Positions 16,072-56,160 of a stretch of DNA of 64,000 nt are shown piece after piece. The position numbers and the translations under genes are program-made. The notes under the pieces were generated by a model that saw only the letters and a program-made list of their open reading frames with translations, was not told the DNA's origin and did not search any database. Numbering within the stretch: the stretch's first letter is position 1; each line of letters opens with the position of its first letter. This stretch comes from Omnitrophica bacterium GWA2_41_15. GTDB lineage: Bacteria > Omnitrophota > Gorgyraeia > Gygaellales > Profunditerraquicolaceae. Where the stretch lies: positions 64,192-128,191 of the forward strand of contig CAKKQB010000013.1 in assembly GCA_919901915.1 (NCBI GenBank), written 5' to 3'.

Positions 16072-17286
16072 CTACCCCGGCCTAAACAATTTAATCAAAT
16101 TCCACATCGGCAGGAATATAGCCAAAGCCATAATTAAAACCATAATCCCTAAAACAAAAATTAATATAGGCTCAATATAAGTAGTCAAATTCCTGATCAT
16201 ATAAGCTGTTTCCCTGTCATAATAATCCGCCACATTTATAAGCAATTCGCCCATCCTGCCTGTTTGTTCTCCGGTTGAGACCATCTGAACTACAACAATA
16301 GGAAACAAATTGCTTACCTTCATCGGTTCAGACATACCCTTGCCCTGGTTAACATTTTCCTTGATATGCCCGATTGCCCGCGCGACAATAATATTTCCGG
16401 ACGTGTTTGCCGTTAAATCCAACACCTCTAAAATAGACACGCCGCTTTCCATTAATATGGCGGTAACACGCGCGAAACGCGACATAATAAGCAAGGTTAT
16501 CAACGGCCCCAAAACCGGAATCTTTAATTTAAGATTATCAAAAATAGGCCTGCCTATTTTTGAATTAATGAAACTCCTTAAACCAAAAATACCTGCTCCT
16601 GTCAACAAAATAAATAAATACCAAAATTTCTTGATACTAATACTAAGGGCGATTAAAATCCTTGTCGGAAGAGGCAATAACGTATTAAACTGGCTGTAAA
16701 TAACCGCAAAACGCGGAATGACAAAGGTAATCACAATAAGAAAAGCTACACATAAAGCAGAAAATGCCAACATCGGATAACGCGTGGCCGCGTTTATGCG
16801 GCTGGAAGTATCAATCTCCTGCTCTAATAACCCCGAGAGCCTTTCCAAAACACCCACTATATTACCGCTGGTCTCCGCGACCTTAATCATCGCGACGTAG
16901 ATACCATTAAAAATTTGGGATTGCTCTTTTAAGCTATCAGAGAAACTTAAGCCTCCTTTAATATTGAGGGCAATTTTTTCAATAACAGATTTAAAATATC
17001 TATTTTTTGTTTGTTGTGCCAGCGTCTCTAAGTTTGATAACAAAGGAAGCCCCGCCTTTTGCATAGAATAAAGCTGGCGCGTAAAAACATCCAACTCTTG
17101 AAGCCCCACGCGCTTAAACCGCTTAAGAATCTTTCCAACGCCCAAATCACGCGCTTCAATAATGGATATGGGAATATAGCCCATATCCGCCAGTTCTTTC
17201 GCGGCAAAATCGCTGGTTTCAGCGACAATCGTGCCTATAGCAAGCTTAGAAAATTTATCACGCGCCTTATATTTAAAATTAGCCAT
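16072..17286 (-). CDS. pilC: type IV pilus platform protein PilC (GspF family)
   Basis: Two T2SSF repeats and three TM segments. Start preferred at ATG 17286 ([10 protein letters not shown]), which overlaps the carB stop by 8 nt. The track start at 17331 is GTG. Confidence 0.9.
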
Positions 17287-18916
17287 ACGTAGAATAATAA
17301 TAAGGTGTAGCGGCATGGAACTCCGCGGCACAGGTATCTACAAGTTTATACACGGGAAAAATATTAAATGATTCGCGTAATTTATACATGTCTTCTTCAT
17401 TTTTACCTAGTAAACGACTCAACTGCCTATCGCTAAAACCAAATTCCTTCGCTTGAGTAAGGAGCTCTTTTGTAATATTATTCTTGTTTTTTATAATCTC
17501 TTTCTCTAAATCAATTATTTCTTTTATATTTGCCAAAAACCAACGGTCAATCTTGGTTAATTCATTAATTTTTTCTATATCCACCCCTATCCTTAAGGCA
17601 TCGCCAATATAAAAGATCCTTTCAGCGTTAGGTATTCTTAACTTTTGCTCAATCTTTTCCCACGCGCCATTATCCAATTCGCCTAAACTTTCTAAACCAT
17701 ACTTTTTAATCTCCAGAGAACGCAGGCCCTTCTGCAAAGCCTCCTTAAAAGTCCTCCCTATCGCCATTACCTCACCAACGGACTTCATAGAAACTGTAAG
17801 CGTGGGATCAGCGGATGGAAATTTTTCAAAAGTAAAGCGGGGAATTTTTACCACGCAATAATCTATTGCCGGTTCAAAACAAGCGGGCGTTTCTTTGGTA
17901 ATATCATTAGGGATCTCATCTAAGGTATAACCCACGGCTAACTTCGCGGCAATTTTCGCGATGGGAAAACCAGTCGCCTTAGACGCCAGAGCAGAGCTTC
18001 TTGAAACCCTTGGATTCATCTCAATAATAACCATGCGCCCGGTTTCAGGATTAATCGCGAATTGAATATTAGAGCCTCCTGTACTAACGCCTATCTCTCT
18101 TATGCAGGCAATTGAGGCGTCGCGCATTTTTTGATATTCTTTATCAGTTAACGTTTGAATAGGCGCGACAGTAATACTATCTCCTGTATGTACGCCCATC
18201 GGATCAAAATTTTCAATGGAACAAACTATTACCACATTATCCATTGAATCCCGCATTACCTCTAATTCAAACTCCTTCCAGCCAATTACCGATTCCTCAA
18301 TAAGAATTTCGCTGTTCATGCTGGACTCAAGGCCATACTTTGCCAAATCCTTAAATTCTTCTATATTATAAGCAACACTTCCGCCTGTTCCGCCTAATGT
18401 AAAACTCGGCCGAATAATCACCGGAAAACCTATCTCTTTAACCGCCTCTATGGCCTCATTTAAATTATAGGCCTTTTTACTTTTAGGCAGGTCCAGGCCA
18501 ATTTTTTGCATCGCCTTTTTAAAAAGCTGCCTGTCTTCGCCTTTTTTGATTGCCTTTATATCTACGCCAATGGTTTCTACCTTATATTTTTTAAGGATTC
18601 CTTTTTCCGCTAAATCTATAGATATATTTAAAGCGGTCTGCCCTCCCAATGTAGGCAATAACGCGTCCGGCCTTTCTCTGGCGATAATCTTTTCTATGAC
18701 CTCTACGGTCATTGGCTCAATATATGTCGCGTCTGCCATTTGAGGGTCGGTCATAATAGTAGCAGGATTTGAATTTATTAAAACTACTTTATAACCTTCC
18801 TGCCTTAAAACCTTGCAGGCTTGAGTTCCGGAATAATCAAATTCACAACCCTGGCTGATAATAATCGGGCCTGAACCAATAATTAGAATCTTCTTTATGT
18901 CAGTACGTTTAGGCAT
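17279..18916 (-). CDS. carB: carbamoyl-phosphate synthase large subunit, N-terminal half only (split CarB)
   Basis: Start at [18 protein letters not shown]. The first ATP-grasp domain is present. It ends ...[19 protein letters not shown], exactly where the second half of a full-length (about 1070 aa) CarB begins. Confidence 0.9.
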
Positions 18917-18922
18917 AATAAT

Positions 18923-19029
18923 TAGCGTAGAGCGTAGAGCGGATAGTAAAATTAGCATTTAGCGTAGAGCGTAGAGCGTTTAATAAAAGTCTTTTGCCTT
19001 TTCTCTACGCTCTACGCTATACGCTATCC
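18923..19029. repeat. A-type heptamer-array hairpin (AGCGKAK)n ... (MTMCGCT)n
   Basis: tagcgtagagcgtagagcggatag...agcgtagagcgtagagcg-loop-ctctacgctctacgctatacgctatcc. The right arm contains the carA stop. Confidence 0.85.
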
Positions 19030-20102
19030 TTCATCATCTCTATAAATTTCCCAAATAGGTATTTCGTATCATGCGGACCAGGAGATGCCTCGGGATGAAA
19101 CTGAACAGAAAAAACAGGCAATTTCTTATGCCGCATTCCTTCCAGGGTATCGTCATTTAAATTTATATGCGTAAGCTCTATATCTTTCTTATCCAAAGAA
19201 TCTATGTCCACGCAAAAACCGTGATTTTGCGCTGTTATACAAACTTTTCCTGTCTTTAAGTCCTTAACCGGATGATTCGCGCCATGGTGGCCGAATTTAA
19301 GTTTATAGGTTTTACCGCCAAAAGCAAGCCCTAACATCTGATGGCCAAGGCAGATTCCGAATATCGGCAATTTACCAATTAAGCCTCTTGTTGTTTCTAC
19401 AACATATTTTACTGCTGATGGATCTCCCGGGCCGTTAGAAAGCAAAACCCCGTCAGGTTTAAGCTCTAAAATATCCTCTGCTCTTGTTTCAGCCGGCACA
19501 ACTACTGCTTCGCAATTATGCTCAACGAGCTCTCTTAAAATATTATATTTTACCCCGCAATCAATCACTACAACCTTATATTTAGCTTTCTTTAAACTAG
19601 GCCAGATATATTTTTTGGCACAACTTACCTCTTTAACTAAGTCTATTCCCGTCAGTCCCAATGACTTTTTTACTTTTTCCACTAAACTCTTTTCATCCAA
19701 ATCTCGCGTAGATAAAACTGCCTTCATCGCGCCTTTTTCTCTGACATGCAAGGTTAGCGCTCTTGTATCTATCCCTTCAATACCCATGATATTATTTTCT
19801 TCTAAGTATTCTCCTAATGACTGCTCCTTGCGCCAATTACTGGCAATTTTACTATATTCTTTTACCGCGAATCCTTCCAGAAACAACCCTGCTGACTCTG
19901 TATCAAGCCTGTTTACGCCATAATTACCAATTAAAGGATACGTCATCGTAACAATCTGGCCTTTATAAGAAGGGTCTGTCAAGATCTCCTGATACCCTGC
20001 CATACTGGTATTAAAAACTATCTCGCCATAGCTTTCGCCAGAAGCGCCAAAAGATTTACCCCTAAATATCATTCCGTCTTCTAATACAAGAATTGCTTCC
20101 AT
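19017..20102 (-). CDS. carA: carbamoyl-phosphate synthase small (glutaminase) subunit
   Basis: 361 aa. CPSase_sm N-domain plus class I GATase triad (GICLGHQ, HPE). Confidence 0.95.
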   Translation of the reverse strand: MEAILVLEDGMIFRGKSFGASGESYGEIVFNTSMAGYQEILTDPSYKGQIVTMTYPLIGNYGVNRLDTESAGLFLEGFAVKEYSKIASNWRKEQSLGEYLEENNIMGIEGIDTRALTLHVREKGAMKAVLSTRDLDEKSLVEKVKKSLGLTGIDLVKEVSCAKKYIWPSLKKAKYKVVVIDCGVKYNILRELVEHNCEAVVVPAETRAEDILELKPDGVLLSNGPGDPSAVKYVVETTRGLIGKLPIFGICLGHQMLGLAFGGKTYKLKFGHHGANHPVKDLKTGKVCITAQNHGFCVDIDSLDKKDIELTHINLNDDTLEGMRHKKLPVFSVQFHPEASPGPHDTKYLFGKFIEMMKDSV

Positions 20103-20107: not shown

Positions 20108-20137
20108 TAGCGTATAGCGGATAGCGTAGAGCGTATA
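20108..20137. repeat. A-type heptamer array, single arm
   Basis: tagcgtatagcggatagcgtagagcgtata; no complementary arm seen nearby. Confidence 0.75.
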
Positions 20138-37700: not shown

Positions 37701-39386
37701 TGGGTCAATTGCCGGATTAGTAACCTGCGCGAATAACTGTTTAAAATAACTATAAAGCAACTGCGGCTTATCAGATAAAACCGCATGCGGGGTATCATTA
37801 CCCATTGAGCCATTCGGTTCATGAGAATCTTCCACCATAGGTTTAATGATAAATTTAAAATCCTCGCGGGTGTAACCGAAAGCTTTGAATAGAGTTAACG
37901 GATCTACTTTATTAGCGGATAGCGGATAGCTTTTATTAGCGTAGAGCGTAGAGCGTAAAGCGTAGAGCGTTTTGCTTTTCCTATCCGCTATACGCTCTAC
38001 GCTATCCGCTGATAATTTATCCAACTCTAACATATTTTTTTTAAGCCATTCTCCATACGGCTTAGAGCTTGCCATTGTTTCTTTTATTTCCTTATCTTCA
38101 ATTATGCGGCCTTCTTCTGTATCAACAAAAAGCATCTTTCCCGGTTCAAGCCTTCCTGAGATAGAAATATCATCCGGCGCGATATCTAAAACCCCTGCCT
38201 CTGAAGCCATAACTACCAAATTCTTTTTGGTCACAATATAGCGGCTAGGCCTTAAACCATTTCTGTCTAAAACCGCGCCAATCCTTACGCCATCAGTAAA
38301 GGCAATGGCTGCCGGTCCATCCCAGGACTCAATAAGACAAGTGTGGTATTTATAAAAATCTCTTACATTTTGACTCAAAAGATTATTCTGCTCCCAAGCG
38401 CTGGGTATTAACATCATCATCGCGTGAGACAAAGATCTACCCGATAAAACTAAAAGTTCAAAAACATTATCAATAGCCGCGGAATCGCTTCCCCCGGGAA
38501 CAATCACCGGAAAAATTTCCTTTAAATCCTTACCAAATAATTTACTTTTTAGTAAACCTTGGCGGGCAGTCATCCAATTTATATTCCCTTTTAAGGTATT
38601 TATCTCTCCATTATGCGCCAAGAACCGAAAAGGCTGCGCCAGATCCCAAGTGGGAAAAGTATTGGTACTATAACGGGAATGCACTAAACAAATCGCGCTT
38701 TGAAGAGCGCTGTCTTTTAAATCCAAAAAGAATTTCTCCAACTGCTCAGGCATAAGCAGGCCTTTATAAGAAAGCGTGCGGCAAGAAAGATTAGTAATAT
38801 AAAAAAATGATTTTTGTTTTAAGAATAAAGAGCGGATTTCGTTTTCTATTTTCTTGCGGATAATATAAAGCCTGCGCTCAAAATCAAGGCCATCCTTACC
38901 TATACTTAGACCTTTACCTTTACCTATAAAAACCTGCTCAATCACCGGTTGAGTAAGCTTTGCGGTTTTGCCAATCGCGGAATTATCAACCGGGACAATC
39001 CGCCAACCAAGCAAGGCCTGGCCCTCTTCTTTAATAATTCTAGCAAAGATACCCTTACATAACGCGCGCTCTTTTTTGTTAGTGGGAAGAAATACCATGC
39101 CTATCCCATAATCGCCAGAGGACGGTAAAATAAAATTTTCCTTCGCGCAGGCTTTTGCCAAAAATTCATGTGGCGCCTGAATAAGTATGCCTGCGCCATC
39201 CCCGGTCTCTGGGTCGGCGCCAGTTGCCCCGCGATGAGAAAGACGGCCTAAAACCTCCATGCCCTGTTTAATAATTTCATAAGATTTTTTGCCTTTGACA
39301 TCGCAAACAAATCCTACGCCGCAGGAATCATGTTCAAAACGGGAATCATACAACCCGTATTTTTCTAATTTCTGACGATTATCCAT
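34743..39386 (-). CDS. gltB: glutamate synthase large subunit
   Basis: 1547 aa. Ntn Cys (DSCGVGF), central domain, FMN domain and GXGXG domain. Contains two repeat-derived inserts. Confidence 0.95.
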   Translation of the reverse strand: MDNRQKLEKYGLYDSRFEHDSCGVGFVCDVKGKKSYEIIKQGMEVLGRLSHRGATGADPETGDGAGILIQAPHEFLAKACAKENFILPSSGDYGIGMVFLPTNKKERALCKGIFARIIKEEGQALLGWRIVPVDNSAIGKTAKLTQPVIEQVFIGKGKGLSIGKDGLDFERRLYIIRKKIENEIRSLFLKQKSFFYITNLSCRTLSYKGLLMPEQLEKFFLDLKDSALQSAICLVHSRYSTNTFPTWDLAQPFRFLAHNGEINTLKGNINWMTARQGLLKSKLFGKDLKEIFPVIVPGGSDSAAIDNVFELLVLSGRSLSHAMMMLIPSAWEQNNLLSQNVRDFYKYHTCLIESWDGPAAIAFTDGVRIGAVLDRNGLRPSRYIVTKKNLVVMASEAGVLDIAPDDISISGRLEPGKMLFVDTEEGRIIEDKEIKETMASSKPYGEWLKKNMLELDKLSADSVERIADRKSKTLYALRSTLYANKSYPLSANKVDPLTLFKAFGYTREDFKFIIKPMVEDSHEPNGSMGNDTPHAVLSDKPQLLYSYFKQLFAQVTNPAIDPIREELVMSLDTYLGPQKNILDEQPRHCHKLLVKNPILTNEDLKKIHDIKKNGFKTKTISLLFNISEKNNFKKALDRICKETEAAIKEGFTFVILSDQGINKDKACLSALLATACVHQDLVRKALRTQVSIIVQSASPREVHHFALLFGYGADCINPYLAYEAAAFLIRDKEVDLDLESAIKHYIKAVDKGILKILSRMGISTLQSYRGAQIFEALGLSSEVIDKYFTGTVSRIGGIDLGIIEKEALLRHKEAFAVDGLQRPFLATGGLYQWKKDGEFHLWNPDSIAALQGAVRNNDSKKYQEFAKLINDQSSNPATLRSLFKFKEVKPIPIEEVEPVSEIVRRFVTGAMSFGSISKACHETIAIAMNRLGGRSNTGEGGEDPARFVAFPNGDSKRSAIKQVASGRFGVITNYLVNADELQIKIAQGAKPGEGGQLPGHKVSAAIAKIRYTTPGVTLISPPPHHDIYSIEDLAQLIFDLKNVNPRARVSVKLVSEIGVGTIATGVAKGHADMILISGGDGGTGASPLSSIKHAGLPWELGIAETHQTLVLNDLRSRVRLQVDGGMRTGRDVAVAALLGAEEFGFCTSVLVVLGCVMLRHCHLNNCSLGVATQDELLEKRFSGKPEYVENYFRFIAQELRQIMSSLGIVKIDDLIGRADLLEVNSKILPWKAKKIDFSRILYQPKGNGRASHSPSRKPEGSGLAPYKQDYGIDNILDRKLIELARGALENRKPIKIELSIRNHNRSVGTMLSGEVCRIFGEDGLPANTIHFKFKGVAGQSFGAWLAKGVTLELEGLTNDYVGKGMSGGKIIIYPDRQSNYKVEENIIIGNTTFYGAILGSAYIRGIAGERFCIRNSGLYAVVEGVGDHACEYMTGGRVVVIGRTGRNFAAGMSGGIAYVWDKDGDFKNKCNMEMVILEAVAEEDARTIEKLLSNHYHYTRSSSAKNILDNFTPELKKFVKVMPIEYKRVLGGRKTEEKIELVEASDG
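35597..35658. repeat. E-type palindromic element inside gltB (in frame, linker between FMN and C-terminal domains)
   Basis: ccaaaccactgccctctggcttgcggctcgggctatgggaagcccgaccattgccctttggc encodes QPKGNGRASHSPSRKPEGSGL. Confidence 0.7.
37911..38010. repeat. A-type heptamer-array hairpin inside gltB (in frame)
   Basis: attagcggatagcggatagc...tagcgtagagcgtagagcgtaaagcgtagagcg-loop-ctatccgctatacgctctacgctatccgct encodes SADSVERIADRKSKTLYALRSTLYANKSYPLSAN. Confidence 0.85.
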
Positions 39387-39389: not shown

Positions 39390-39558
39390 TTTAGCGTATA
39401 GCGTATAGCGTAGAGCGTAGAGCGTATAGCGTATAGCGTAGAACGTAGAGCGTAGAGCGGATAGCGGATAGTAAAAATCTATGTTTTAACTATATGTTAT
39501 CCGCTATTCCTACACGCTTTCTTTCCTATCCGCTAAACGCTATACGCTCTACGCTAAT
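39390..39558. repeat. A-type heptamer-array hairpin, largest copy (left arm about 11 units)
   Basis: tagcgtatagcgtatagcgtagagcgtagagcgtatagcgtatagcgtagaacgtagagcgtagagcggatagcggatag, then a loop, then a degenerate complementary arm. Confidence 0.85.
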
Positions 39559-41785: not shown

Positions 41786-41803
41786 GTGTTCCTCCTTTTA
41801 ATA

Positions 41804-41840
41804 GTGTATAGCGGATAGTTTTACTTTTTTTTATCCACTA
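41804..41840. repeat. short degenerate A-type hairpin
   Basis: gtgtatagcggatag-ttttactttttt-ttatccacta. Confidence 0.5.
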
Positions 41841-41865
41841 ACCTACCCTTTATAACTAACAATTA

Positions 41866-43023
41866 CTAAGCATCAAGAAATTCTTCAGCATCCGCGTAGG
41901 CCTCTGCTCTTCTGCCAAAAAGCGAAAGTATTAATCCCGAGATATACCCACTAACAAAAGCTAGTACAACAGCAATAACAATACCTGTCCACTGCTTTCT
42001 GCAATCTAATCCGCTTACAACAAACATCGCGGCAATACCGCCCATTAAACCGGGTAGCCCATGTAAACACATAACACCGCAAGTATCTACTTTCTTAATT
42101 TTATTCTGCAACCATGGGAGAATAACAGCAAAACCAAATACCGACAAGGCTCCGGCTAATAATCCGATTACCATTGAACTAACTGGGTTCGCGTAATCAC
42201 AAGTAGAACCAATAGCCACGCCGCCAGCCAATGACGCGTTCGCGATATCACTAATTGAAATCTTGCGCCTCAAAACACAAGAAGTAATATAGGTAGCTAA
42301 CGTCGCGCCGCAAAGAGCAATAACCACATTAATTACCGTTTGTGGCACCTTTGCCGTTGGCACAAGCGCCGCGCAAAAACTTGGCCAAAAAAACCACAAG
42401 ACCATACTCCCCAACATTGAGAATCTGTCGCTTACAACATCCGTTTCTATGGGTGTATCAAATTCTTTTTTTGTGGTCAAATTCATTATCAGGCCAAACC
42501 CAAAAATAGCTCCGAAGGCATGGATTATTATAGAACCTCCAGTATCCGCGAAACCGCCATTAGGCAACAATCCAAAGCCGCCTGAAAGAATTATCCATTC
42601 ATTCAACATATAACAAGGAACAAAAAGCAACCCTAATATAATATATTGAATCATTTTTAATCTGCCTAACACCGCGCCGGCACAGATCAAAAGGCCTGCT
42701 CCCGCGAACTCTGCCAAAATCAAGCCGTCTATACCTGTCTGAACATTTCCAAATAAACCTAAACTATTGAGACAAATATATAACGGTACTGCCACGCTTA
42801 CCAGCAAGAATGTCGCTGTCAACGCGGAGCGCCCATACTTTTTAACAAAAACCATCAAAAAACCAAACCCAACTAAAAGCATTGCCATTATATGTATTGC
42901 CCGATCACATTTTTGAACATCTGTAACTGGGCCTAAAAAATCCTCTGCCGAACTAACACGCAGAAAAATTAACGACGCAGCCAACACCAACAACAATATT
43001 AACATCCAACGATTTTTTTTCAT
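41866..43023 (-). CDS. ammonium channel, Rh-type (Rh50-like) rather than AmtB-type
   Basis: 385 aa, about 11 TM segments. Has LVGFGFLMVFVKKYGRSA and IIHAFGAIFGFG, which resemble Rh-family signatures. Confidence 0.75.
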   Translation of the reverse strand: MKKNRWMLILLLVLAASLIFLRVSSAEDFLGPVTDVQKCDRAIHIMAMLLVGFGFLMVFVKKYGRSALTATFLLVSVAVPLYICLNSLGLFGNVQTGIDGLILAEFAGAGLLICAGAVLGRLKMIQYIILGLLFVPCYMLNEWIILSGGFGLLPNGGFADTGGSIIIHAFGAIFGFGLIMNLTTKKEFDTPIETDVVSDRFSMLGSMVLWFFWPSFCAALVPTAKVPQTVINVVIALCGATLATYITSCVLRRKISISDIANASLAGGVAIGSTCDYANPVSSMVIGLLAGALSVFGFAVILPWLQNKIKKVDTCGVMCLHGLPGLMGGIAAMFVVSGLDCRKQWTGIVIAVVLAFVSGYISGLILSLFGRRAEAYADAEEFLDA

Positions 43024-43083
43024 TTTATCCTTTCTTTGCCTAAAAAAGTAACTTCCCTTAATAAGCTGAAGACGTCCCTGTCC

Positions 43084-43121
43084 TTAAAAACAAGAAGCCC
43101 CAAAACATTTTGGGGCTTCTT
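43084..43121 (-). terminator. intrinsic-terminator-like hairpin + U tract located inside the predicted leader of the Rh-type channel gene
   Basis: Minus strand reads aagaagccccaaaatgttttggggcttctt followed by gttttt. Confidence 0.6.
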
Positions 43122-43147
43122 TGCCTTTGACTTAATTGTCAATTAAG

Positions 43148-43175
43148 ATCATAGCATATTTCATATTCTTGTCAA
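43148..43175 (-). promoter_or_regulatory. sigma70-type promoter (tttttcTTGACA-16-TATGAT) upstream of the Rh-type channel gene
   Basis: Minus strand reads TTGACAagaatatgaaatatgcTATGAT, followed by palindrome cttaattgacaattaag. Confidence 0.5.
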
Positions 43176-43201
43176 GAAAAAAAATGCAAGGGGAGGGGAA
43201 T

Positions 43202-44635
43202 TTAGGTTCTTTCGTCTTTAAGGTAGTTAATTATTGAAAAAGCGGCTTTCTTAGCCATGCCCATTGCCTCAATAACCGTGCCTTCTCCACCCACGATATC
43301 TCCGCCGGCAAAAACGCCTTTAATAGATGTCTCCATAGTTTGGGGGTTTACGATAACATCTTTGTATTTATCGGTTTTTAACTCCGATGTAACATTAGTT
43401 AAAACCTGATTTGCCTGCAAACCCACGGCAATAATCGCTATATCGCAATCTATTCCAAAATCGCTTCCCTCTACAGCAACCGGCCTTCTTCTCCCGGATT
43501 CATCCGGCTCTCCCAAGCGGCACCTAAGACACCTTAACTTTTGCACCTTTCCTTCCTCATCGCCGATAAACTCTACTGGCTGAACCAAAAATTCAATTTT
43601 TATTCCCTCTTCCTTAGCATGTTCGATTTCCAATCTTCTTGCCGGCATCTCAACTTCAGTCCTACGATAAAGAATTGTGGTGTTAGGGCTAAACCCATTT
43701 ATTATTTGCAATCTTAACGCGGCTCGAGCAGCATCCAAAGCTGTATTGCCTCCGCCAACAACTAAGACCTGCTTACCTATATTAATAGGGGTGTGAAACT
43801 GAGGAAACTTGTCAGCTAACATCAAATTAACCCGAGTTAAGAATTCATTGGCTGAATAAACATTGCCTAAATTCTCGCCTTTTATTTCTAAAAATGACGG
43901 CACACCCGCGCCCAACCCCAGAAATATAGCAGAATATCCTTCGCTAAAAAGCTCATCTAACGCCTTAACTTTTCCCACAATAAAATTAGGGATGAGTTGA
44001 ACCCCCAATTTCTTTAACTCATTTATTTCATAATCAAGAACATCGCGCGGCATCCTAAAAGGGGGTATCCCATACCTTAAAACTCCGCCCGGTTTATGCA
44101 AACTCTCAAAGATATCCACCTTTACTCCCTGCCTTGCCAATTCACCGGCGCAAGCCAAACCAGCCGGACCAGAACCCACAACCGCGACTTTAAACCCAAA
44201 CTTAACAAATTTCTGATCCTTGCCTGCTGGCGCCTCCAAATTATTCTTTACCCCATAATCACCGACAAATCTTTCCAAAAAATGAATATTGATTGCCTGC
44301 TCTGAAGCAAAAGAGGCGGTCTTTTTTGTCAAAACACAAGCCCTGCGGCACTGATATTCCGCGGGACAAACCCTTCCGCAAATAGAGGGAAAATCATTCT
44401 TTTCCCGAAGAATAAAATAAGCCGCCCTATAATCTTTTTTGGTAATCCAAGAGATAAACTCCTTTATATTTATTCCTACGGGACAACCGAATTGACAAAT
44501 AGGGTTCGGACACTGCAGACAGCGGTTAGCCTCAATAAGCGCCTCTTCTTCTGTGTATCCTAAAACTACCTCATCAAAATTCTTTATTCTTTCTGAAGGA
44601 TTTAATTCTCTTACTTTTACTGCTTCTTTTTTCAT
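43202..44635 (-). CDS. nfnB: NfnB/SudA-like NADPH-dependent glutamate-synthase-beta-type oxidoreductase
   Basis: 477 aa. Two Fe-S Cys clusters, GSGPAGL and GGGNTA folds. Paired with the NfnA-like gene. Confidence 0.75.
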   Translation of the reverse strand: MKKEAVKVRELNPSERIKNFDEVVLGYTEEEALIEANRCLQCPNPICQFGCPVGINIKEFISWITKKDYRAAYFILREKNDFPSICGRVCPAEYQCRRACVLTKKTASFASEQAINIHFLERFVGDYGVKNNLEAPAGKDQKFVKFGFKVAVVGSGPAGLACAGELARQGVKVDIFESLHKPGGVLRYGIPPFRMPRDVLDYEINELKKLGVQLIPNFIVGKVKALDELFSEGYSAIFLGLGAGVPSFLEIKGENLGNVYSANEFLTRVNLMLADKFPQFHTPINIGKQVLVVGGGNTALDAARAALRLQIINGFSPNTTILYRRTEVEMPARRLEIEHAKEEGIKIEFLVQPVEFIGDEEGKVQKLRCLRCRLGEPDESGRRRPVAVEGSDFGIDCDIAIIAVGLQANQVLTNVTSELKTDKYKDVIVNPQTMETSIKGVFAGGDIVGGEGTVIEAMGMAKKAAFSIINYLKDERT

Positions 44636-44659
44636 CCTCTTATTTTTAATGTTTTAGTA

Positions 44660-44732
44660 TTTAGCGGATAGCGTATAGCGTATATATAGGTTTTACTATC
44701 CGCTATACGCTCTACGCTATACGCTATACGCT
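44660..44732. repeat. A-type heptamer-array hairpin
   Basis: tttagcggatagcgtatagcgtata-loop-tatccgctatacgctctacgctatacgctatacgct. The right arm contains the nfnA stop. Confidence 0.85.
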
Positions 44733-45569
44733 TGATATTTTAAGATTACAGATATGCTTTTCTTTATCTAAATAAACACTGTTCCTCTTTGTCAATTCAT
44801 CCCAATTTACTTGAGTTCCGTCAAATTCCGGGCCATCAACGCAAGCAAATTTCGTCTTACCTGCCACAGTTACACGGCAACAGCCGCACATTCCAGTAGC
44901 ATCTACCATCAAAGGATTCAAAGAAACAATGGTTTTAACTTTAAAATCGCTAGCAACCTCGCAAACTCTTCTCATCATCGGTATCGGGCCGACTGCGTAA
45001 ATTAGCGAATAGCGGATAGCGGATAGTGAATAGCTTAATACCTCCTGCAAAATATCAGTAACAAAGCCTTTCCTGCCGCAAGAACCGTCATCAGTGGTTA
45101 TATAAAGCTCATCGCAAAACACCTTTAGCTCCTGCTCCAAAATCAATAAATCATTGTTTCTTGCGCCCAGTATAGTAGTAGTATGGTTTCCCGCTTCTTT
45201 CAAAGCCTTGGCAACCGGATAAATCTCCGCAATTCCTACGCCTCCGCCTACAAGAATTAAATTTCCAAAATTTTTAATCTCAGTAGCATGCCCCAGGGGC
45301 CCGGCCAAAGCGTATAATGAATCACCAACCTCCATCTTGCCCAGCAACTTAGTAGTTAAGCCAACCTCTTGAAAGATCAAGGTAATTGTGCCTATGTCAG
45401 AATTTTTATCTACTATAGTTAGAGGTATCCTTTCGCCTTCCTCGCATACCATAAGAACAACAAATTGGCCCGGTCTTACTTTCCTGGCAATAAGCGGGCT
45501 TAAGATTTCAAAGCGCTTAATTGTTACGTCTTGCGTTTGTGCTAAAATTTCTTTTTTGATTATCCGCAT
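44724..45569 (-). CDS. nfnA: NfnA/SudB-like FAD/NAD-binding ferredoxin-reductase-type subunit (PyrK family)
   Basis: 281 aa. Has RPGQFV, GGGVGIA and a C-terminal 2Fe-2S Cys cluster (GMCGCCRV...CVDGPEF). Confidence 0.75.
   Translation of the reverse strand: MRIIKKEILAQTQDVTIKRFEILSPLIARKVRPGQFVVLMVCEEGERIPLTIVDKNSDIGTITLIFQEVGLTTKLLGKMEVGDSLYALAGPLGHATEIKNFGNLILVGGGVGIAEIYPVAKALKEAGNHTTTILGARNNDLLILEQELKVFCDELYITTDDGSCGRKGFVTDILQEVLSYSLSAIRYSLIYAVGPIPMMRRVCEVASDFKVKTIVSLNPLMVDATGMCGCCRVTVAGKTKFACVDGPEFDGTQVNWDELTKRNSVYLDKEKHICNLKISSV
45001..45035. repeat. A-type heptamer array (single arm) inside nfnA, in frame
   Basis: agcgaatagcggatagcggatagtgaatagc encodes SYSLSAIRYSLIY. Confidence 0.7.
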
Positions 45570-45607
45570 AGAAAAAATTGATTACCGAAAGAAAAGGATT
45601 CGTTGAT

Positions 45608-45728
45608 GGGACTGTTGTGAAATACCAAACCTTGCGTCATTCTGAGGCCGAAAGCCGAAGAATCTCGACGCTGATAAGATCCTTCGCTTCGCTCAGGATG
45701 ACGAAAAAGGGTATTTCGCAACGGTCCC
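45608..45728. mobile_element. MITE-like element, short variant (ends GGGACTGTTGTGAAATACC / GGTATTTCGCAACGGTCCC)
   Basis: Same end family as 8025-8197 and 51992-52164, but with core II inside (gtcattctgaggccgaaagccgaagaatc...gctcaggatgac). Confidence 0.75.
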
Positions 45729-45740
45729 TTGATCGGAATC

Positions 45741-46478
45741 TTACTTTACATCACTGTAATCATTCTTATTTTTTAATTCGGCAGTTAAAATAATTGCTTC
45801 GGCGATTTCGCGCATGGACTTACGTTTATCCATACTCTGTTTTTGAATTAATCTGTAGGCCTCGGATGGTTTTACATCTGCCTCCTGGGAAAGTATATCC
45901 TTTGCCCGTTCAATCAGCTTGCGGGTAACTAAGGCTTCTTCAGCGCTATGCGCCCGCAAAGATAATTCAGCATTTTCAATGGCCATAGCCGTCTGATTGG
46001 CCAAAGTTGTAAGAAGACTTATCTCGGATTTTGTAAACTTATGTCTTTTTGAGGTATAACAATTAAGCACGCCGATTACTGTCCCTCTTACTGCCAAAGG
46101 GACACTAGCCAAAGAACAAAGCCCTTCTTTTTTAGCGATGTCCCTATTTAAGTAATCCGCGTCTTCCCTGACATCCAAAACAACCATTGATTTATTATCC
46201 CGCGCAACCGCTCCCGCAATCCCCTCTCCTAATTTTATATTGGGTTTTTTATTGTAGCTTTGAGAAATAGACTGGGTCGCGCGTACAACTAATTCTTTCC
46301 TCTCGGAATCAAGAAGCATCAAAGAAGAGATTTTTAAATTCATCACCTGGGCAGTAACCTCAACAACTAAACGAAGAAGCTCGTCCAGATACAAGCCTGA
46401 AGTAATCAGGTTCGCGACCTTAGAAATCGCCTCAATCTGCTTTGTATAAACCTGATAACCCTTTACCTTTTTAATCAT
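45741..46478 (-). CDS. GAF + ANTAR domain RNA-binding antitermination regulator
   Basis: 245 aa. A GAF domain, then an ANTAR-like C-terminus (LVTRKLIERAKDILSQEADVKPSEAYRLIQKQSMDKRKSMREIAEAII). Confidence 0.85.
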   Translation of the reverse strand: MIKKVKGYQVYTKQIEAISKVANLITSGLYLDELLRLVVEVTAQVMNLKISSLMLLDSERKELVVRATQSISQSYNKKPNIKLGEGIAGAVARDNKSMVVLDVREDADYLNRDIAKKEGLCSLASVPLAVRGTVIGVLNCYTSKRHKFTKSEISLLTTLANQTAMAIENAELSLRAHSAEEALVTRKLIERAKDILSQEADVKPSEAYRLIQKQSMDKRKSMREIAEAIILTAELKNKNDYSDVK

Positions 46479-46484
46479 AATTAG

Positions 46485-47642
46485 TTAACGATTCCTCTTC
46501 AAAAAACTTTCTATTCTACTTAACGCCTCTTTCAAATTATCAAAACTTGCGGCATAGGATATGCGAATATTGTCCGCGAACTGAGCGCCAAAAGCTGTGC
46601 CCGGAATAACCGCGACCTTTTCCTCCTTTAAAAGCTGTTGGCAAAAATCCATCGCCTTAAGACCGCTGCTTTTTATGCTGGGAAAAGCATAGAAAGCACC
46701 CTGCGGCTTTGAACACTCAAGGCCGATGCGATTCAGCTCACTAACCACAAACTCTCTTCTTCGTTTATATTCACGCTTCATCTCTTCCACTGATTTTCTG
46801 CCTGAATGCATCGCTTCAGAAGCAGCTATTTGAGAAGTAATAGACACGCACATAATGGTATACTGATGAATCTTAGTCATAGCCGCGATAATCTCTTTTG
46901 GGCCGCAAGCAAAGCCCACACGCCAGCCAGTCATCGCGTAACTTTTGGAAAAACCATCAAGATAAACAGTCGAATTTTTTGCTTGAGGCAATGTCGCGAA
47001 AGGCGTATGAGTAAAATCATACGTCAAATCTCCATAAACCTCATCGCTGATACAAAGCAGATTATACTTCAACGCGATCTTCTTAATTTCCTCTAATTCT
47101 TTTTTAGTATAAGATACGCCCGTAGGATTAGTAGGGTAGTTCAATATAATTGCTTTAGCTTTCTTGTCTATGCTCTTCTCCAAGCTTTCCGGTGTAAGCT
47201 TAAAATTGTTTTTACTTGTATCGATATAAACAGGTATACCGCCGGCTAATTCACTAACCGGGCCGTAAGAAACATAACATGGCTCGGGTATAATTATTTT
47301 ATCACCCGGATTTATAATGGAACGCAAAACTAAATCCAAAGCCTCGCTTACCCCAACAGTAATCAAAATCTCTTCATCCGGACAATAATCCAAACCGTAT
47401 TTATTTTTTAGGTATTGTGAAATGGTCAGCCTTAATTTATACAAGCCCTTATTTGAGGTGTAAGAGGTAAAACCCTCTTCTAATGAAGCTATCCCTGCTT
47501 CGCGTATCTGCCAAGGCGTAACAAAATCCGGCTCACCCACGCCAAGGGAAATTACATCCTTCATGCCTAATACTAAATCAAAAAACGCGCGAATTCCGGA
47601 GGGATGCATTTGCTTAACTTTTTCGGAAACCAAATCTTTCAT
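46485..47642 (-). CDS. class I/II PLP-dependent aminotransferase (AspC-like)
   Basis: 385 aa. Has NPTG and the PLP lysine motif SKSYAMTGWRVG. Confidence 0.9.
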   Translation of the reverse strand: MKDLVSEKVKQMHPSGIRAFFDLVLGMKDVISLGVGEPDFVTPWQIREAGIASLEEGFTSYTSNKGLYKLRLTISQYLKNKYGLDYCPDEEILITVGVSEALDLVLRSIINPGDKIIIPEPCYVSYGPVSELAGGIPVYIDTSKNNFKLTPESLEKSIDKKAKAIILNYPTNPTGVSYTKKELEEIKKIALKYNLLCISDEVYGDLTYDFTHTPFATLPQAKNSTVYLDGFSKSYAMTGWRVGFACGPKEIIAAMTKIHQYTIMCVSITSQIAASEAMHSGRKSVEEMKREYKRRREFVVSELNRIGLECSKPQGAFYAFPSIKSSGLKAMDFCQQLLKEEKVAVIPGTAFGAQFADNIRISYAASFDNLKEALSRIESFLKRNR

Positions 47643-47649
47643 CGTTTTC

Positions 47650-47716
47650 AGCGTTTAGCGGATAGCGTTTAGCGTATAGTTTTTTTTATCCGCTATACGC
47701 TCTACGCTATACGCTA
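47650..47716. repeat. A-type heptamer-array hairpin
   Basis: cagcgtttagcggatagcgtttagcgtatag-ttttttt-tatccgctatacgctctacgctatacgcta. Confidence 0.85.
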
Positions 47717-48202
47717 TTAATACGATATAGCTATCCTCTTATTCTCTTCCCTGTGCTTCAAAATCACTCCATCTTCCTTATATTTTTTTAATAAAAAGTG
47801 CGTGACTATGCCGCGGATATTCTCGAGGCAAGAAAGTTTCTCCGCTACAAATTGTGAAACTTTTTGTAAATTCTTGCCCTCAACTATAACCAAAAGGTCA
47901 TACGTGCCGGAAATCAAGCAACAGTCAGTTACCTCCGGAAACGAATAAATACGCTCAGCAATTTTATCAAAACCAATATCCTTTTGCGGAGCAATATTAA
48001 CCTCTATCAAAGCCCTGACGGAAGGCTCTTCGGTTTTAATTAAATCCTTATTTATTACTGTTTTATATTTTAAAATTATCCCCTCTTTTTCATACTTTTT
48101 TATCGCCTCTTTTATTGCCTCCGGCTTTTTCTTTAACATTTTCGCGATCTCTTCCGGAGTTACAAGCGCGTTCTTTTCTAATATCTCTAATATTTCGTCC
48201 AT
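47717..48202 (-). CDS. Lrp/AsnC family transcriptional regulator
   Basis: 161 aa. An HTH, then a RAM/AsnC_trans_reg domain. Confidence 0.85.
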   Translation of the reverse strand: MDEILEILEKNALVTPEEIAKMLKKKPEAIKEAIKKYEKEGIILKYKTVINKDLIKTEEPSVRALIEVNIAPQKDIGFDKIAERIYSFPEVTDCCLISGTYDLLVIVEGKNLQKVSQFVAEKLSCLENIRGIVTHFLLKKYKEDGVILKHREENKRIAISY

Positions 48203-48225
48203 TACCTCGCTCCTTTCAGTCGCTC

Positions 48226-48287
48226 GGAGAGAACAGATTACAGAGTACGGATTACTGAAAGATTTTTCTGTGCTCTGTTCTCTGTGC
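48226..48287. repeat. C-type heptamer hairpin (CAGAGMA units), overlapping the nadE 3' end
   Basis: ggagagaacagattacagagtac...ctgtgctctgttctctgtgc. Related to 61007-61095. Confidence 0.7.
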
Positions 48288-49008
48288 TTTCTTTAATATA
48301 GCATATTTTCGGCCCTTCCCTCTTATGCTCTGATTTCTTTACCATATTTTTTACTTTATTTACTTTCTCTTTTGATAAGACCTGTTTCTTCTTGTTTTCC
48401 AAACGCTCCAATATGTCATCTAACTCGTTATAGGTAAGCCCCATTTCTCCTTCATCGGTCTGGCCTGGCCAGAGTCCGGCAGTAGGCGGCTTAGTAACAA
48501 TGGATTCGGGAATCTTTAATTCTTTAGCCAATGCCCTTACCTGTTTTTTTAATAAACCGCCGATTGGCAAAATATCCGTTGCCCCGTCGCCATACTTGGT
48601 AAAATAACCGACTTCAATTTCAGATCTATTTCCTGTGCCGCAGACAAGATAATTAAGTTTATTGGCAAAATAATATAAAACTAACATCCTTAAGCGCGGT
48701 TTTAAATTTGCCAAAGCTAACGGCCCCGCTTTGGGTAAAATTTTCATGACATTGTCGTAAATATCAGCCAAATCAATTAATTTTATTTTTATCCCAAATT
48801 TCCTTGCCACTAACTTTGCGTCATCTAAATCCTGTTTTTGACTATGACAGCCAAGAAACAAAACCAAAAGTTTTTGTTTACCCAGCGCTTCCCTGGCTAA
48901 AACAGCTACCACCGCGGAATCTATCCCCCCGCTTAAACCCATAACAATACCCTTTGCCTTAGCCGCTTTGACCTGCTGCCTAATCCAAGAAATAATTTTC
49001 TTTTTCAT
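48238..49008 (-). CDS. nadE: NH3-dependent NAD+ synthetase
   Basis: 256 aa with the SGGIDS PP-loop. The last about 16 aa (STENRAQKNLSVIRTL) are repeat-derived. Confidence 0.9.
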   Translation of the reverse strand: MKKKIISWIRQQVKAAKAKGIVMGLSGGIDSAVVAVLAREALGKQKLLVLFLGCHSQKQDLDDAKLVARKFGIKIKLIDLADIYDNVMKILPKAGPLALANLKPRLRMLVLYYFANKLNYLVCGTGNRSEIEVGYFTKYGDGATDILPIGGLLKKQVRALAKELKIPESIVTKPPTAGLWPGQTDEGEMGLTYNELDDILERLENKKKQVLSKEKVNKVKNMVKKSEHKREGPKICYIKESTENRAQKNLSVIRTL

Positions 49009-49832: not shown

Positions 49833-49903
49833 GTCATTCTGAGGCCCTGAAGGGGCCGAAGAATCTCGACGCTAATAAGATCCTTCGCTTCGCTCAGGAT
49901 GAC
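49833..49903. repeat. core II capped hairpin without MITE ends, overlapping the mnmG 3' end
   Basis: gtcattctgaggccctgaaggggccgaagaatctcgacgctaataagatccttcgcttcgctcaggatgac; compare 45636-45702. Confidence 0.8.
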
Positions 49904-51991: not shown

Positions 51992-52164
51992 CTGTTGCGA
52001 AATGCCATTTTTCGTCATTCCGGCGAAAGCCGGAATCCAGAACTCTTTGATTTCAATAGGCTTATGGATACCGGCGACCGAGGGCGAAATGCCCGAGGAA
52101 GTGTCAGAGCCCAACTGGGCTCGACCTTTCGCCGGTATGACGGTTTTAATGTATTTCGCAACAG
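51992..52164. mobile_element. MITE-like element, copy 2 (173 bp)
   Basis: Collinear with 8025-8197, differing by a few substitutions. It starts 4 nt after the 51824-51987 element. Confidence 0.75.
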
Positions 52165-53642: not shown

Positions 53643-53700
53643 ATTAGCGCGGATAGCGTTTAATTTTTTCTATACGCTATACGCTCTACGCTATACGCTA
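53643..53700. repeat. A-type heptamer-array hairpin
   Basis: ttagcgcggatagcgttta-atttttt-ctatacgctatacgctctacgctatacgcta. Confidence 0.85.
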
Positions 53701-56068: not shown

Positions 56069-56160
56069 TTTTTTTCTCCCTATCGTATTACATTTGACAC
56101 TATCATATTACACGTATTGTCAAAAGTATTTAGTTAATTCTTTTATATCTGCTGGCTCTT

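What the first reader, a model, noticed from the sequence alone, without database searches (positions are those of the whole stretch)
44697..44732. Repeat arms donate the last codons and the stop codon of carA and nfnA (both end ...SV-TAG from AGCGTATAG)
carA ends AAG GAT AGC GTA TAG (KDSV*) at 19017-19031. nfnA ends TCA AGC GTA TAG (SSV*) at 44724-44735. In both cases the AGC GTA TAG lies inside the right arm of an A-type hairpin.

Either the elements target stop codons, or insertion replaced the native 3' ends. In both cases the hairpin forms on the mRNA exactly at the site of translation termination. That could couple termination to RNA structure or to expression of the downstream gene (carB, nfnB).
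Basis: seen in the sequence. Interest (0 to 1): 0.5.

Follow-up and report, generated by a model that had tools for sequence, protein, structure and literature searches.

The report
Repeat hairpins supply two genes' stop codons
In this uncultured Omnitrophota bacterium, hairpin-forming arrays of a 7-base repeat have been inserted at tight gene junctions, so carA and nfnA now finish in repeat sequence (…Ser-Val-stop); this is best read as a by-product of selfish or slippage-prone repeat DNA and not as a demonstrated regulatory device.

Summary
carA (19017-20102, minus strand) ends GAT AGC GTA TAG. nfnA (44724-45569, minus strand) ends TCA AGC GTA TAG. Both ends lie in the mRNA-5' arm of strongly predicted hairpins built from inverted arrays of the heptamer AGCGKAK.

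None of about 119 CarA or 119 NfnA orthologues ends in SV. The conserved cores end before the repeat.

In repeat-free relatives, the carA stop overlaps the carB start (..TAT GCC TAA / ATG CCT AA) and nfnA/nfnB overlap as ATGA. In the window the repeat sits between the carA body and the intact carB start.

The shared SV* follows from the unit sequence. The 5'-arm orientation carries TAG in two of three frames within 14 nt; the 3'-arm orientation has no stops.

The same family gives ...SV*, ...SVERRA* or boundary-TAG endings in other genomes. Five other palindromes occupy the same carA|carB junction in other Omnitrophota-like contigs.

There is no terminator signature and no Rfam match, and the nfnB start is not sequestered. 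A regulatory role is untested.

The closest published analogue is the TAACTGA heptamer repeats of Beggiatoaceae.

The parts
44696..44732 (-). mRNA-5' arm of the nfnA/nfnB hairpin: five AGCGKAK units. It holds the last two nfnA codons and the stop (AGC GTA TAG = 44732-44724).
44662..44685 (-). mRNA-3' arm of the nfnA/nfnB hairpin (ATACGCT/ATCCGCT units). It has no stop codon in any frame.
44724..45569 (-). nfnA-like gene (DHODB_Fe-S_bind / NAD_binding_1), 281 aa. The conserved core ends at ..KEKHICNL; the tail is KISSV*.
43202..44635 (-). nfnB/gltD-like gene. Its ATG (44635) is 88 nt after the nfnA stop and 26 nt beyond the hairpin, preceded by AAGAGG.
19003..19030 (-). mRNA-5' arm of the carA/carB element (GGAT AGCGTAT AGCGTAG AGCGTAG AG). 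It holds the carA codons GAT AGC GTA and the stop TAG (19028-19017).
18960..18979 (-). First 3'-arm copy. It pairs with the 5' arm in the minimum-free-energy fold.
18923..18946 (-). Second 3'-arm copy. It ends 6 nt before the carB ATG and lies outside the main stem in the MFE fold, where part of it pairs only weakly with carA coding sequence (absent from the centroid).
19017..20102 (-). carA (carbamoyl-phosphate synthase small subunit), 361 aa, ending ..FIEMMKDSV*. Orthologues mostly end ..MMKKYA* or ..MMKKHA* at the same length.
18909..18917 (-). TAT GCC TAA, overlapping the carB start ATG CCT AAA (ATG = 18916-18914). In repeat-free relatives this same string encodes the last two carA codons and its stop.
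17279..18916 (-). carB N-terminal half. The homology-supported start is MPKRTD at 18916. The mechanical ORF starts at 18958, inside the array.
20108..20137 (-). Solitary 3'-arm-type array of the same family, ending 5 nt before the carA ATG. It has no partner arm and no adjacent stop.
37913..38010 (-). Complete element of the same family, translated in frame inside gltB (a linker insertion absent from 34 homologues).
39392..39556 (-). Largest element of the family (an 11-unit 3' arm), between glnA (type III) and gltB. The glnA stop is about 35 nt upstream; the 3' arm ends 5 nt before the gltB ATG.
47650..47716 (-). Element whose 5' arm abuts the TAA stop of the AsnC-type regulator gene (47717-48202). 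Its 3' arm ends 7 nt before the aminotransferase ATG.
53645..53700 (-). Element between the ribonucleotide reductase and phosphoglycerate mutase genes. The native TAA is about 10 nt upstream. The same junction carries the same family in another Omnitrophota MAG (L099).

Best explanation
The window comes from an uncultured Omnitrophota genome that carries a dispersed family of palindromic heptamer arrays. Each has a run of AGCGKAK units, a short A-rich loop, and a run of the complementary MTMCGCT units.

These arrays arise or insert at the few places where a compact genome tolerates them, which are mainly gene junctions.

carA|carB: the ancestral arrangement was an overlap in which the last carA codons and its stop are embedded in the carB start. 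nfnA|nfnB is ATGA-overlapped in two relatives; its ancestral state in this lineage is undetermined. The array was inserted a few codons before the end of the upstream gene. Its reading frame now runs into the array and stops at the first in-frame TAG.

The unit carries TAG at the junction of T-type units, and the period 7 is not a multiple of 3. The 5'-arm orientation therefore has stops in at least two of three frames within 14 nt, so only 2-3 foreign residues are added to a non-conserved tail. In the AGCGTAT|AG register these are always Ser-Val.

The complementary orientation has no stops at all. This is why the same element can be read through in gltB, and why ORF callers over-extend downstream genes.

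Shown: the sequence facts, the orthologue tails, the overlapping junctions in relatives, and the recurrence in other genomes.

Inferred: the direction of the event (insertion into an ancestral overlap), and that the stop donation is a tolerated by-product with no selected function. A terminating ribosome must melt most of the 5' arm, so some slowing of termination and loss of the original overlap coupling are likely. This last point is inference from general ribosome-footprint knowledge, not a tool result.
For: Sequence and fold:
-.

Orthologue tails:
- Only the window's own proteins end in SV among 120 NfnA and 120 CarA sequences.
- 58 of 119 CarA orthologues end in [YHND]A, as expected for xAT GCC TAA overlapping ATG CCT AA. 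56 of 120 CarA sequences (the 119 orthologues plus the query) have the query's tail length.

Junctions in relatives:
- Repeat-free carA|carB junctions L122, L136 and L138 show the overlap.
- nfnA/nfnB overlap as ATGA in L125 and L126.
- Alignment A1 places the whole element between ..GAGATGATGAAG and ATGCCTAAACG.

Frame analysis:
- 5' arms have stops in 2 of 3 frames by offset 13 or less in five of six arms.
- 3' arms have none in 9 of 10.

Recurrence in other genomes:
- 15 of 79 arrays in 117 loci from other genomes plus the window contain the stop of an ORF of 100 or more codons. Ten more lie 1-10 nt after one. Random positions give 3.3% and 1.1%.
- Endings seen elsewhere: KNSV*, LDSV*, NISV*, TISV*, AYSV*..SVERRA*, or TAG at the array edge.

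Insertional nature:
- The gltB linker insertion is absent from 34 homologues.

Other repeat families doing the same thing:
- MnmG tail HFCHPERSEGSY* in the window.
- NfnA of the closest relative.
- CarA in L123, L124, L129, L130 and L137.
Against: - No close relative (over 90% identity) with an empty site was found, so the insertion is inferred from relatives at 68-80% protein identity. The closest CarA and NfnA orthologues are 77-80% identical.
- For nfnA the ancestral state (overlap or short spacer) cannot be decided. One relative (L127) has a 63-nt spacer.
- No target-site duplication, transposase or other mobilising function was identified, so the mechanism that creates the arrays is unknown.
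- Six of nine carA|carB junctions examined are occupied by palindromes. In the window, five 3' arms end 5-7 nt before SD-less start codons. Both facts could reflect selection for a function and not mere tolerance.
- The random-position control is crude, because most random positions fall in coding sequence.
Confidence: 0.72

Rival explanations
1. The elements integrate site-specifically at stop codons. For example, they recognise TAG or TA at gene ends, so the stop is the target and not a donated part.
For: Five arrays in other genomes begin exactly with the gene's TAG (L034, L052, L053, L083, L099). In the window, one arm abuts a TAA (47717) and another lies 10 nt after a TAA (53711).
Against: - Donated stops are spread over offsets -2/-1, +4/+6, +13 and +18 (about 6:7:2:3), as expected for random frame entry.
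- Elements also occur with no stop nearby: a lone array before the carA start, in frame inside gltB, and 35 nt after the glnA stop.
- At carA|carB the position of the ancestral stop (TAA inside the carB start) lies downstream of the whole element.
- Element flanks show no consistent TA or TAG duplication.
Confidence: 0.08
2. The hairpins are selected intercistronic RNA elements. With the stop codon inside the 5' arm, upstream translation must open the stem. This could tune termination or mRNA stability of the upstream gene, as proposed for REP elements close to stop codons in E. coli. It could also re-create translational coupling with the downstream gene after the overlap was lost.
For: - The predicted stems are very stable.
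- The stop lies 6-7 nt inside the stem.
- Five 3' arms in the window end 5-7 nt before start codons that lack a Shine-Dalgarno motif.
- Six of nine carA|carB junctions are occupied by unrelated palindromes.
- The same family sits at the same RNR|apgM junction in two genomes whose RNRs are only 68% identical.
- TAACTGA heptamer repeats were proposed to act in translational regulation (PMC4679880).
Against: - The architecture is inconsistent. The nfnB start is 26 nt beyond the stem, and the carB start follows a 3'-arm copy that is outside the main stem in the MFE.
- Distances from stop to arm range from inside the arm to 35 nt upstream.
- In other genomes, 3' arms are not enriched next to starts: 8 of 79 within 10 nt against 8% for random positions.
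- Arm lengths vary from 2 to 11 units.
- One element is tolerated inside gltB coding sequence.
- No covariation test is possible, because the arms are complementary by construction.
Confidence: 0.15
3. The overlap is a coincidence or an artefact. Either the native C-termini happen to be ..SV*, or the junctions are mis-assemblies at a repeat.
For: - The CarA length (361 aa) equals the modal orthologue length.
- Short-read contigs break inside the array.
Against: - No orthologue ends in SV.
- The last three carA codons match the array unit exactly.
- The gene-to-array junction is reproduced in an ENA assembly and in two independent Logan assemblies.
- The same endings recur in unrelated MAGs.
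Confidence: 0.03
4. The hairpins are intrinsic transcription terminators or attenuators placed between the cistrons.
For: They are stable stem-loops located between genes.
Against: - No terminator-like site was found in either region.
- The stems are followed by A-rich sequence, not U-rich.
- The partner genes are subunits of one enzyme and overlap in relatives, so termination between them would be counter-productive.
Confidence: 0.02

Closest known systems
TAACTGA heptamer direct repeats of marine Beggiatoaceae, cyanobacteria and Bacteroidetes (MacGregor 2015, PMC4679880)
   Same: - 7-nt units in tandem, mostly intergenic.
- One orientation is full of stop codons and the other is open.
- 13 sets overlap the stop codon of the upstream gene.
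- Most lie a few nt before start codons that lack a ribosome-binding site.
- A few are read through inside ORFs at protein ends or between domains.
- The same heptamer is seen in distant phyla.

   Different: - The unit sequence differs (AGCGKAK).
- The window's 5' arms have stops in two, not three, frames.
- The window's arrays are mostly paired as inverted arrays that fold into long hairpins. TAACTGA sets are direct repeats with no predicted structure, with one indirect repeat among 170.
REP/BIME/REPIN elements of Enterobacteria and Pseudomonas
   Same: They are abundant extragenic imperfect palindromes that form stem-loops in polycistronic mRNAs, often right after stop codons. From my own knowledge (not retrieved here), Liang, Rudd and Deutscher 2015 reported that a REP within about 15 nt of a stop codon lowers translation of the upstream gene through ribosome stalling.
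   Different: - REPs have a fixed 20-40-nt consensus and are mobilised by RAYT transposases.
- The arms here are variable-length arrays of a 7-nt unit.
- No RAYT was looked for beyond the window.
Rickettsia palindromic elements and other MITEs (Correia, RUP, ERIC) that insert into or next to genes
   Same: They are palindromic selfish DNA tolerated at gene ends and, in frame, inside protein-coding genes. The gltB linker insertion here behaves like an RPE. The comparison itself is from my own knowledge.
   Different: - MITEs have a defined length, terminal inverted repeats and target-site duplications.
- None of these is evident here.
Cyanobacterial STRR heptanucleotide repeats and the general excess of heptameric SSRs in bacteria
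   Same: Period-7 tandem arrays in intergenic DNA. Heptamers are reported as the over-represented long SSR class, possibly through polymerase slippage (PMC4692102).
   Different: STRRs are described as tandem arrays, not as paired inverted arrays at operon junctions, and have not been reported from Omnitrophota. Two searches of the held literature, plus a term search inside one Omnitrophota paper, found nothing on this.

Membership tests
Heptanucleotide tandem-repeat arrays (STRR / TAACTGA-type long SSRs) | Unit of 7 nt repeated head to tail | tested here: met
   TRF finds period 7 at 18924-19025, 20108-20137, 37913-38010, 39392-39556, 44662-44732, 47650-47717 and 53670-53700.
Heptanucleotide tandem-repeat arrays (STRR / TAACTGA-type long SSRs) | One orientation stop-rich, the reverse orientation open, so arrays can overlap only the very end of an upstream ORF | tested here: met
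   5' arms have stops in 2 of 3 frames, within 13 nt in five of six arms. 3' arms have none in 9 of 10. carA and nfnA overlap the array by 12 and 9 nt.
Heptanucleotide tandem-repeat arrays (STRR / TAACTGA-type long SSRs) | Direct repeats only, with no predicted RNA structure (as described for TAACTGA) | tested here: not met
   Arrays are paired with inverted arrays and fold at -32 and -48 kcal/mol, z below -4. In other phyla, however, most arrays of this unit are solitary (24 of 117 loci are palindromic).
REP / REPIN | Extragenic imperfect palindrome in many copies per genome | tested here: met
   There are nine loci in 64 kb, all but two between genes. Short-read contigs break in the array.
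REP / REPIN | Fixed-length consensus sequence | tested here: not met
   Arms range from 2 to 11 units with variable unit order.
REP / REPIN | Associated RAYT (IS200/IS605-like) transposase in the genome | not tested
   Only 64 kb of the genome is available. Nine of the window's ORFs were scanned against Pfam and none gave a transposase hit; the rest were not scanned.
MITE (Correia / RUP / RPE type) | Target-site duplication flanking a unit of defined length | tested here: not met
   Flanks of six elements show no consistent duplication, and lengths vary.
MITE (Correia / RUP / RPE type) | Insertion polymorphism relative to orthologous loci, including in-frame insertion in genes | tested here: met
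   The element is absent from L122, L136 and L138 at carA|carB. The gltB linker insertion is absent from 34 homologues.
Intrinsic (Rho-independent) terminator | G+C-rich stem immediately followed by a U-tract | tested here: not met
   Zero terminator-like sites in 44400-45000 and 18700-19300. A-rich sequence follows the stems.
Translational-coupling hairpin (downstream start sequestered, opened by the upstream ribosome) | Downstream ribosome-binding region paired within the stem that the terminating ribosome melts | tested here: not met
   The nfnB ATG is 26 nt past the stem. The carB ATG follows a second 3'-arm copy that lies outside the main stem in the MFE (weak outer pairs only, absent from the centroid). 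The geometry is more suggestive at 47650-47716, but this was not tested.
Any curated RNA family (Rfam 15) | Match at gathering threshold | tested here: not met
   The only hit in the window is a tRNA at 6695-6768.

The most novel reading that the evidence does not exclude
Omnitrophota may possess an undescribed process that builds palindromic 7-nt arrays, with genome-specific units, specifically at gene junctions. Units seen at the one carA|carB junction include AGCGKAK, AGTTGAT and TTTTCAG, plus weaker period-7/8 arrays (GTCACAA, TTTTGCG). Under this reading the arrays are functional intercistronic modules. The stop-rich 5' arm ends the upstream gene, and the stop-free 3' arm delivers an SD-less start a few nt downstream. 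The stem would open only when the upstream gene is translated, and so would replace the overlap-based coupling it destroyed.
Probability: 0.12. Interest if true: 0.7.

Novelty: new variant of a known kind. Interest (0 to 1): 0.35.

Why it matters
For annotation: in repeat-rich uncultured genomes such as this one, the last residues of proteins can be repeat-derived. Examples are ..SV*, ..SVERRA*, K-rich tails and ..HPERSEGSY*. N-termini can also be over-extended through the stop-free arm. Both effects contaminate protein databases and C-terminal motif analyses.

For biology: the data show how compact genomes with overlapping, translationally coupled genes absorb palindromic repeats. The overlap is split, and a repeat that carries its own stop codons limits the damage.

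The recurrence of period-7 palindromes with different units at one junction across Omnitrophota points to an uncharacterised generating mechanism. It could be studied with existing metagenomes.

Tried and rejected
1. Intrinsic terminator: no stem-plus-U-tract in either region.
2. Known RNA family: Rfam gave only a tRNA elsewhere in the window.
3. Array-like stretch inside nfnA (45003-45027) as an in-frame insertion: rejected. The alignment with 39 orthologues shows no length change, and orthologues encode similar residues.
4. Target-site duplications or a fixed TA/TAG boundary: not consistent across six elements.
5. A single preferred register between stop and array across genomes: not seen.
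6. Enrichment of 3' arms next to start codons in other genomes: not seen, 8 of 79 against 8% for random positions. It does hold for 5 of 8 arrays in the window.
7. Stops in all three frames of the 5' arm (my first expectation from period 7): wrong for mixed T/G units. Two of three frames is the rule.
8. Search for near-identical strains with an empty site: the degenerate carA-end pattern in JGI metagenomes returned only more distant relatives.
9. Retrieving the E. coli REP/stop-codon paper from the held library failed. It is cited from memory only.
10. Literature on such repeats in Omnitrophota: none found.

Full report
**What is in the sequence**

Nearly all genes in the window are on the minus strand. 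On that strand carA (19017-20102) ends ...ATG ATG AAG GAT AGC GTA TAG. The nfnA-like gene (44724-45569) ends ...AAA ATA TCA AGC GTA TAG.

Both ends lie in period-7 tandem arrays of the unit AGCGKAK. After a short A-rich loop, each array is followed by an array of the complementary unit MTMCGCT.

As RNA, the nfnA/nfnB element (44663-44732) folds at -32.3 kcal/mol (z = -4.5). The carA/carB element (main stem 18953-19026) folds at -48.2 kcal/mol (z = -5.3). No shuffle reached either value. Each stop codon lies 6-7 nt inside the 5' arm.

The 9-mer AGCGTATAG occurs 18 times against 0.44 expected. The 14-nt array motif occurs 39 times against 0.06 expected.

The family has nine loci in the window:
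- the two flagged ones;
- a lone 3'-type array 5 nt before the carA ATG (20108-20137);
- a complete element inside the gltB ORF (37913-38010);
- a large element between glnA and gltB (39392-39556);
- an array-like stretch inside nfnA (45003-45027);
- an element abutting the TAA of an AsnC-type regulator gene (47650-47716);
- an element between the ribonucleotide reductase and phosphoglycerate mutase genes (53645-53700).

**Source and reliability**

The NfnA and CarA proteins are 100% identical to proteins from an NCBI/ENA metagenome-assembled genome. Their nearest relatives are annotated as Candidatus Omnitrophota.

An independent ENA contig is identical to the window over 41724-48569. Two Logan assemblies of separate runs reproduce the nfnA end and the first four repeat units before their contigs break in the array.

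TAG is used as a stop by six other ORFs in the window, so no recoding is suggested.

Among 120 NfnA and 120 CarA sequences, only the window's own proteins end in SV.

The conserved NfnA core ends at ..KEKHIC(N/K)L and is followed by a variable tail, most often 3 residues. The window has KISSV.

CarA orthologues are mostly 361 aa, as here, but end ..MMKKYA or ..MMKKHA. 58 of 119 end in [YHND]A.

The reason is visible in DNA. In the repeat-free relative L122 the genes overlap as AAA TAT GCC TAA / ATG CCT AAG. L136 and L138 show the same overlap. The last CarA residues are therefore encoded by the carB start.

In the window the carB start ATG CCT AAA CGT is intact at 18916. carA ends 100 nt upstream, inside the array. 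Alignment A1 places the whole element between ..GAGATGATGAAG and ATGCCTAAACG. The array therefore sits between the carA body and the place where carA ends in relatives.

The equal protein length is a coincidence of three replaced codons: K-Y-A becomes D-S-V.

For nfnA, two relatives have an ATGA overlap with nfnB (L125, L126). One has a 63-nt spacer (L127). The exact ancestral end is therefore undetermined, but it lay in the variable tail.

**Why SV-stop**

The unit explains the ending. At a junction of T-type units (AGCGTAT|AG) the stop TAG is necessarily preceded by AGC GTA.

In the six 5' arms of the window, two of three frames are closed, within 13 nt in five of them. Nine of ten 3' arms have no stop in any frame. 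My initial expectation of stops in all three frames was wrong for arrays that mix T and G units.

A gene entering the element from either side meets the stop-rich arm first, because a palindrome looks the same on both strands.

**Generality**

The motif TAGCGTAKAGCGTAKAGCG occurs in at least 117 stretches of species-representative genomes. About 17 would be expected by chance (my estimate from 596 Gb). Many are Omnitrophota, Atribacterota and Planctomycetota. In 24 of these loci both orientations occur together.

Of 79 arrays with three or more perfect units:
- 15 contain the stop codon of an ORF of 100 or more codons;
- 10 more begin 1-10 nt after one;
- random positions give 3.3% and 1.1%, a crude control.

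The endings seen in other genomes are ..KNSV*..LDSV*..NISV*..TISV*..AYSV*..SVERRA*, or a TAG formed at the array edge. They are spread over all registers. This argues against integration at a fixed position relative to stop codons.

L099, another Omnitrophota MAG whose RNR is 68% identical, carries the same family at the same RNR|apgM junction.

**Other palindromes do the same thing at the same place**

The carA|carB junction is occupied by a different palindrome in each of these loci:
- L123: a non-heptamer palindrome; carA ends MM-TGA.
- L124: AGTTGAT/ATCAACT heptamers; carA ends AAT AGT TGA in the first unit.
- L130: AGTTTTC/CTGACAA heptamers, with both arms detected by TRF.
- L129 and L137: weaker period-7/8 arrays that are translated as odd tails.

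Six of nine junctions examined are thus invaded. The sample is small and was selected by similarity to the window.

In the closest NfnA relative (77% identity) the tail ..CHPERAHSLRHPE* and its TGA come from yet another repeat. That repeat family also supplies the last 11 or so residues and the TAG of MnmG in the window (49872-49907).

**Insertional nature**

The element inside gltB is read in frame as ..SADSVERIADRKSKTLYALRSTLYANKSYPLSANK.. It lies between the GATase_2 domain (22-447) and the Glu_syn_central domain (501-780).

The linker is 38 residues here against 12 in the Bacillus subtilis structure 7mfm. The extra segment of about 24 residues is absent from all 34 nearest homologues. Its unit composition leaves exactly one frame open, and that frame is the gltB frame (arm E3).

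**Function**

There is no terminator signature and no Rfam match.

The nfnB start lies 26 nt beyond the stem. The carB start follows a second 3'-arm copy that lies outside the main stem in the MFE fold (part of it pairs only weakly with carA coding sequence, and these outer pairs are absent from the centroid).

From general knowledge of ribosome footprints, a ribosome with the stop in its A site must have melted roughly the first 18 nt of the 5' arm. Hairpin formation and termination are therefore mutually exclusive. Some slowing of termination and loss of the ancestral overlap coupling are plausible consequences.

In the window, five 3' arms end 5-7 nt before SD-less start codons. This keeps a translational role conceivable. 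However, the geometry varies from junction to junction, and the proximity to starts is not enriched in other genomes.

I therefore rank "tolerated insertion whose own stop codons limit the damage" first (0.72). A selected coupling or stalling function comes second (0.15), followed by stop-codon targeting (0.08), artefact or coincidence (0.03) and terminator (0.02).

**Comparison with what is known**

The closest published case is the TAACTGA heptamer repeats of marine Beggiatoaceae (PMC4679880). They share these features:
- stops in the forward orientation and an open reverse orientation;
- 13 sets overlapping the upstream stop codon;
- positions just upstream of RBS-less starts;
- occasional read-through at protein ends or between domains.

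The present family differs in its unit sequence. It also differs in being organised as inverted array pairs that form long hairpins, which makes it REP-like in shape. It fails the REP and MITE definitions on fixed length and target duplication. RAYT association was not tested.

Heptamers are the over-represented class of long SSRs in bacteria (PMC4692102). Nothing on such repeats in Omnitrophota was found in the held literature.

**Verdict**

The mechanism is ordinary: a repeat invades a tight or overlapping gene junction and supplies the new stop. The phenomenon has precedent. The specific family, and the recurrence of period-7 palindromes at one junction across Omnitrophota, appear to be undescribed. 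This is a new variant of a known kind, of moderate to low interest (0.35).

Noticed in passing
window 37913-38010 (minus strand), inside gltB 34743-39386: A complete palindromic heptamer element is translated in frame in the linker between the amidotransferase and central domains of glutamate synthase. The segment is ..SADSVERIADRKSKTLYALRSTLYANKSYPLSANK.. It adds about 24 residues that are absent from 34 homologues and from solved GltB structures, which is behaviour like a Rickettsia palindromic element.
   Followed up: yes
window 45003-45027 (minus strand), inside nfnA: Three heptamer units (CTATCCG CTATCCG CTATTCG CTA) encode LSAIRYSLIY with no length change relative to orthologues. P0022, for example, has NAIRYTLIY. 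This could be chance resemblance, a seed for the family, or conversion of a variable loop.
   Followed up: partly
window 49872-49907 and 45640-45700 (minus strand); L121 1010-1140: A different repeat (GTCATCCTGAGCGAAGCGAAGGATC...GCCTCAGAATGAC) donates the last 11 or so residues (HFCHPERSEGSY) and the TAG of MnmG/GidA. A second copy lies between the GAF-ANTAR gene and nfnA. A related repeat donates the tail and stop of NfnA in the closest relative.
   Followed up: partly
window 18914-18958 and 61003-61116 (minus strand): The 3' arms have no stops, so mechanical ORFs over-extend the N-termini of downstream genes. carB is listed from 18958 but homology starts at 18916. ORF 59776-61116 probably starts near 61003, after another hairpin.
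   Followed up: partly
window 61008-61097: This is a second palindromic period-7 family (AGAGCAC/AGAGAAC units and their complement). Its 5' arm begins right after the TAA of ORF 61097-62290. Its 3' arm ends a few nt before a candidate ATG, the same layout as the AGCGKAK elements.
   Followed up: no
L124 1520-1585; L130 4655-4735; L129 6670-6765; L137 2068-2240; L123 3595-3690: The carA|carB junction of other Omnitrophota-like contigs holds different palindromes. Four of them are period-7 (or 7-8) arrays with other units (AGTTGAT, AGTTTTC, TTTTGCG-like, GTCACAA). Odd K-rich CarA tails in the protein database (for example P0152 and P0211) probably have this origin.
   Followed up: partly
window 14714-15598; also 8210-8255, 14013-14046, 14692-14734, 15178-15198, about 57400-57420: There is a perfect 464-bp tandem duplication (1.9 copies, 100% identical). 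It is flanked by decamer repeats TTTATCCGTG, which recur at several other intergenic sites.
   Followed up: no
window 29287-29362, 52013-52142, 56160-56219: A third dispersed palindrome family (GTCATTCCGGCGAAAGCCGGAATCCAG and its complement) has one perfectly complementary 26-nt pair.
   Followed up: no
window 17279-18916 and L122 3579-5231: carB is present only as an N-terminal half of about 545-550 aa, followed by unrelated genes (T2SS protein F here, purS in L122). This indicates a split carB in these Omnitrophota.
   Followed up: no
L001-L117: The identical heptamer AGCGTAK occurs as arrays in distant phyla, including Atribacterota, Planctomycetota, Patescibacteria, Bacteroidota and one Asgard archaeon. 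Outside Omnitrophota these are mostly solitary direct arrays. This echoes the patchy distribution reported for TAACTGA.
   Followed up: partly
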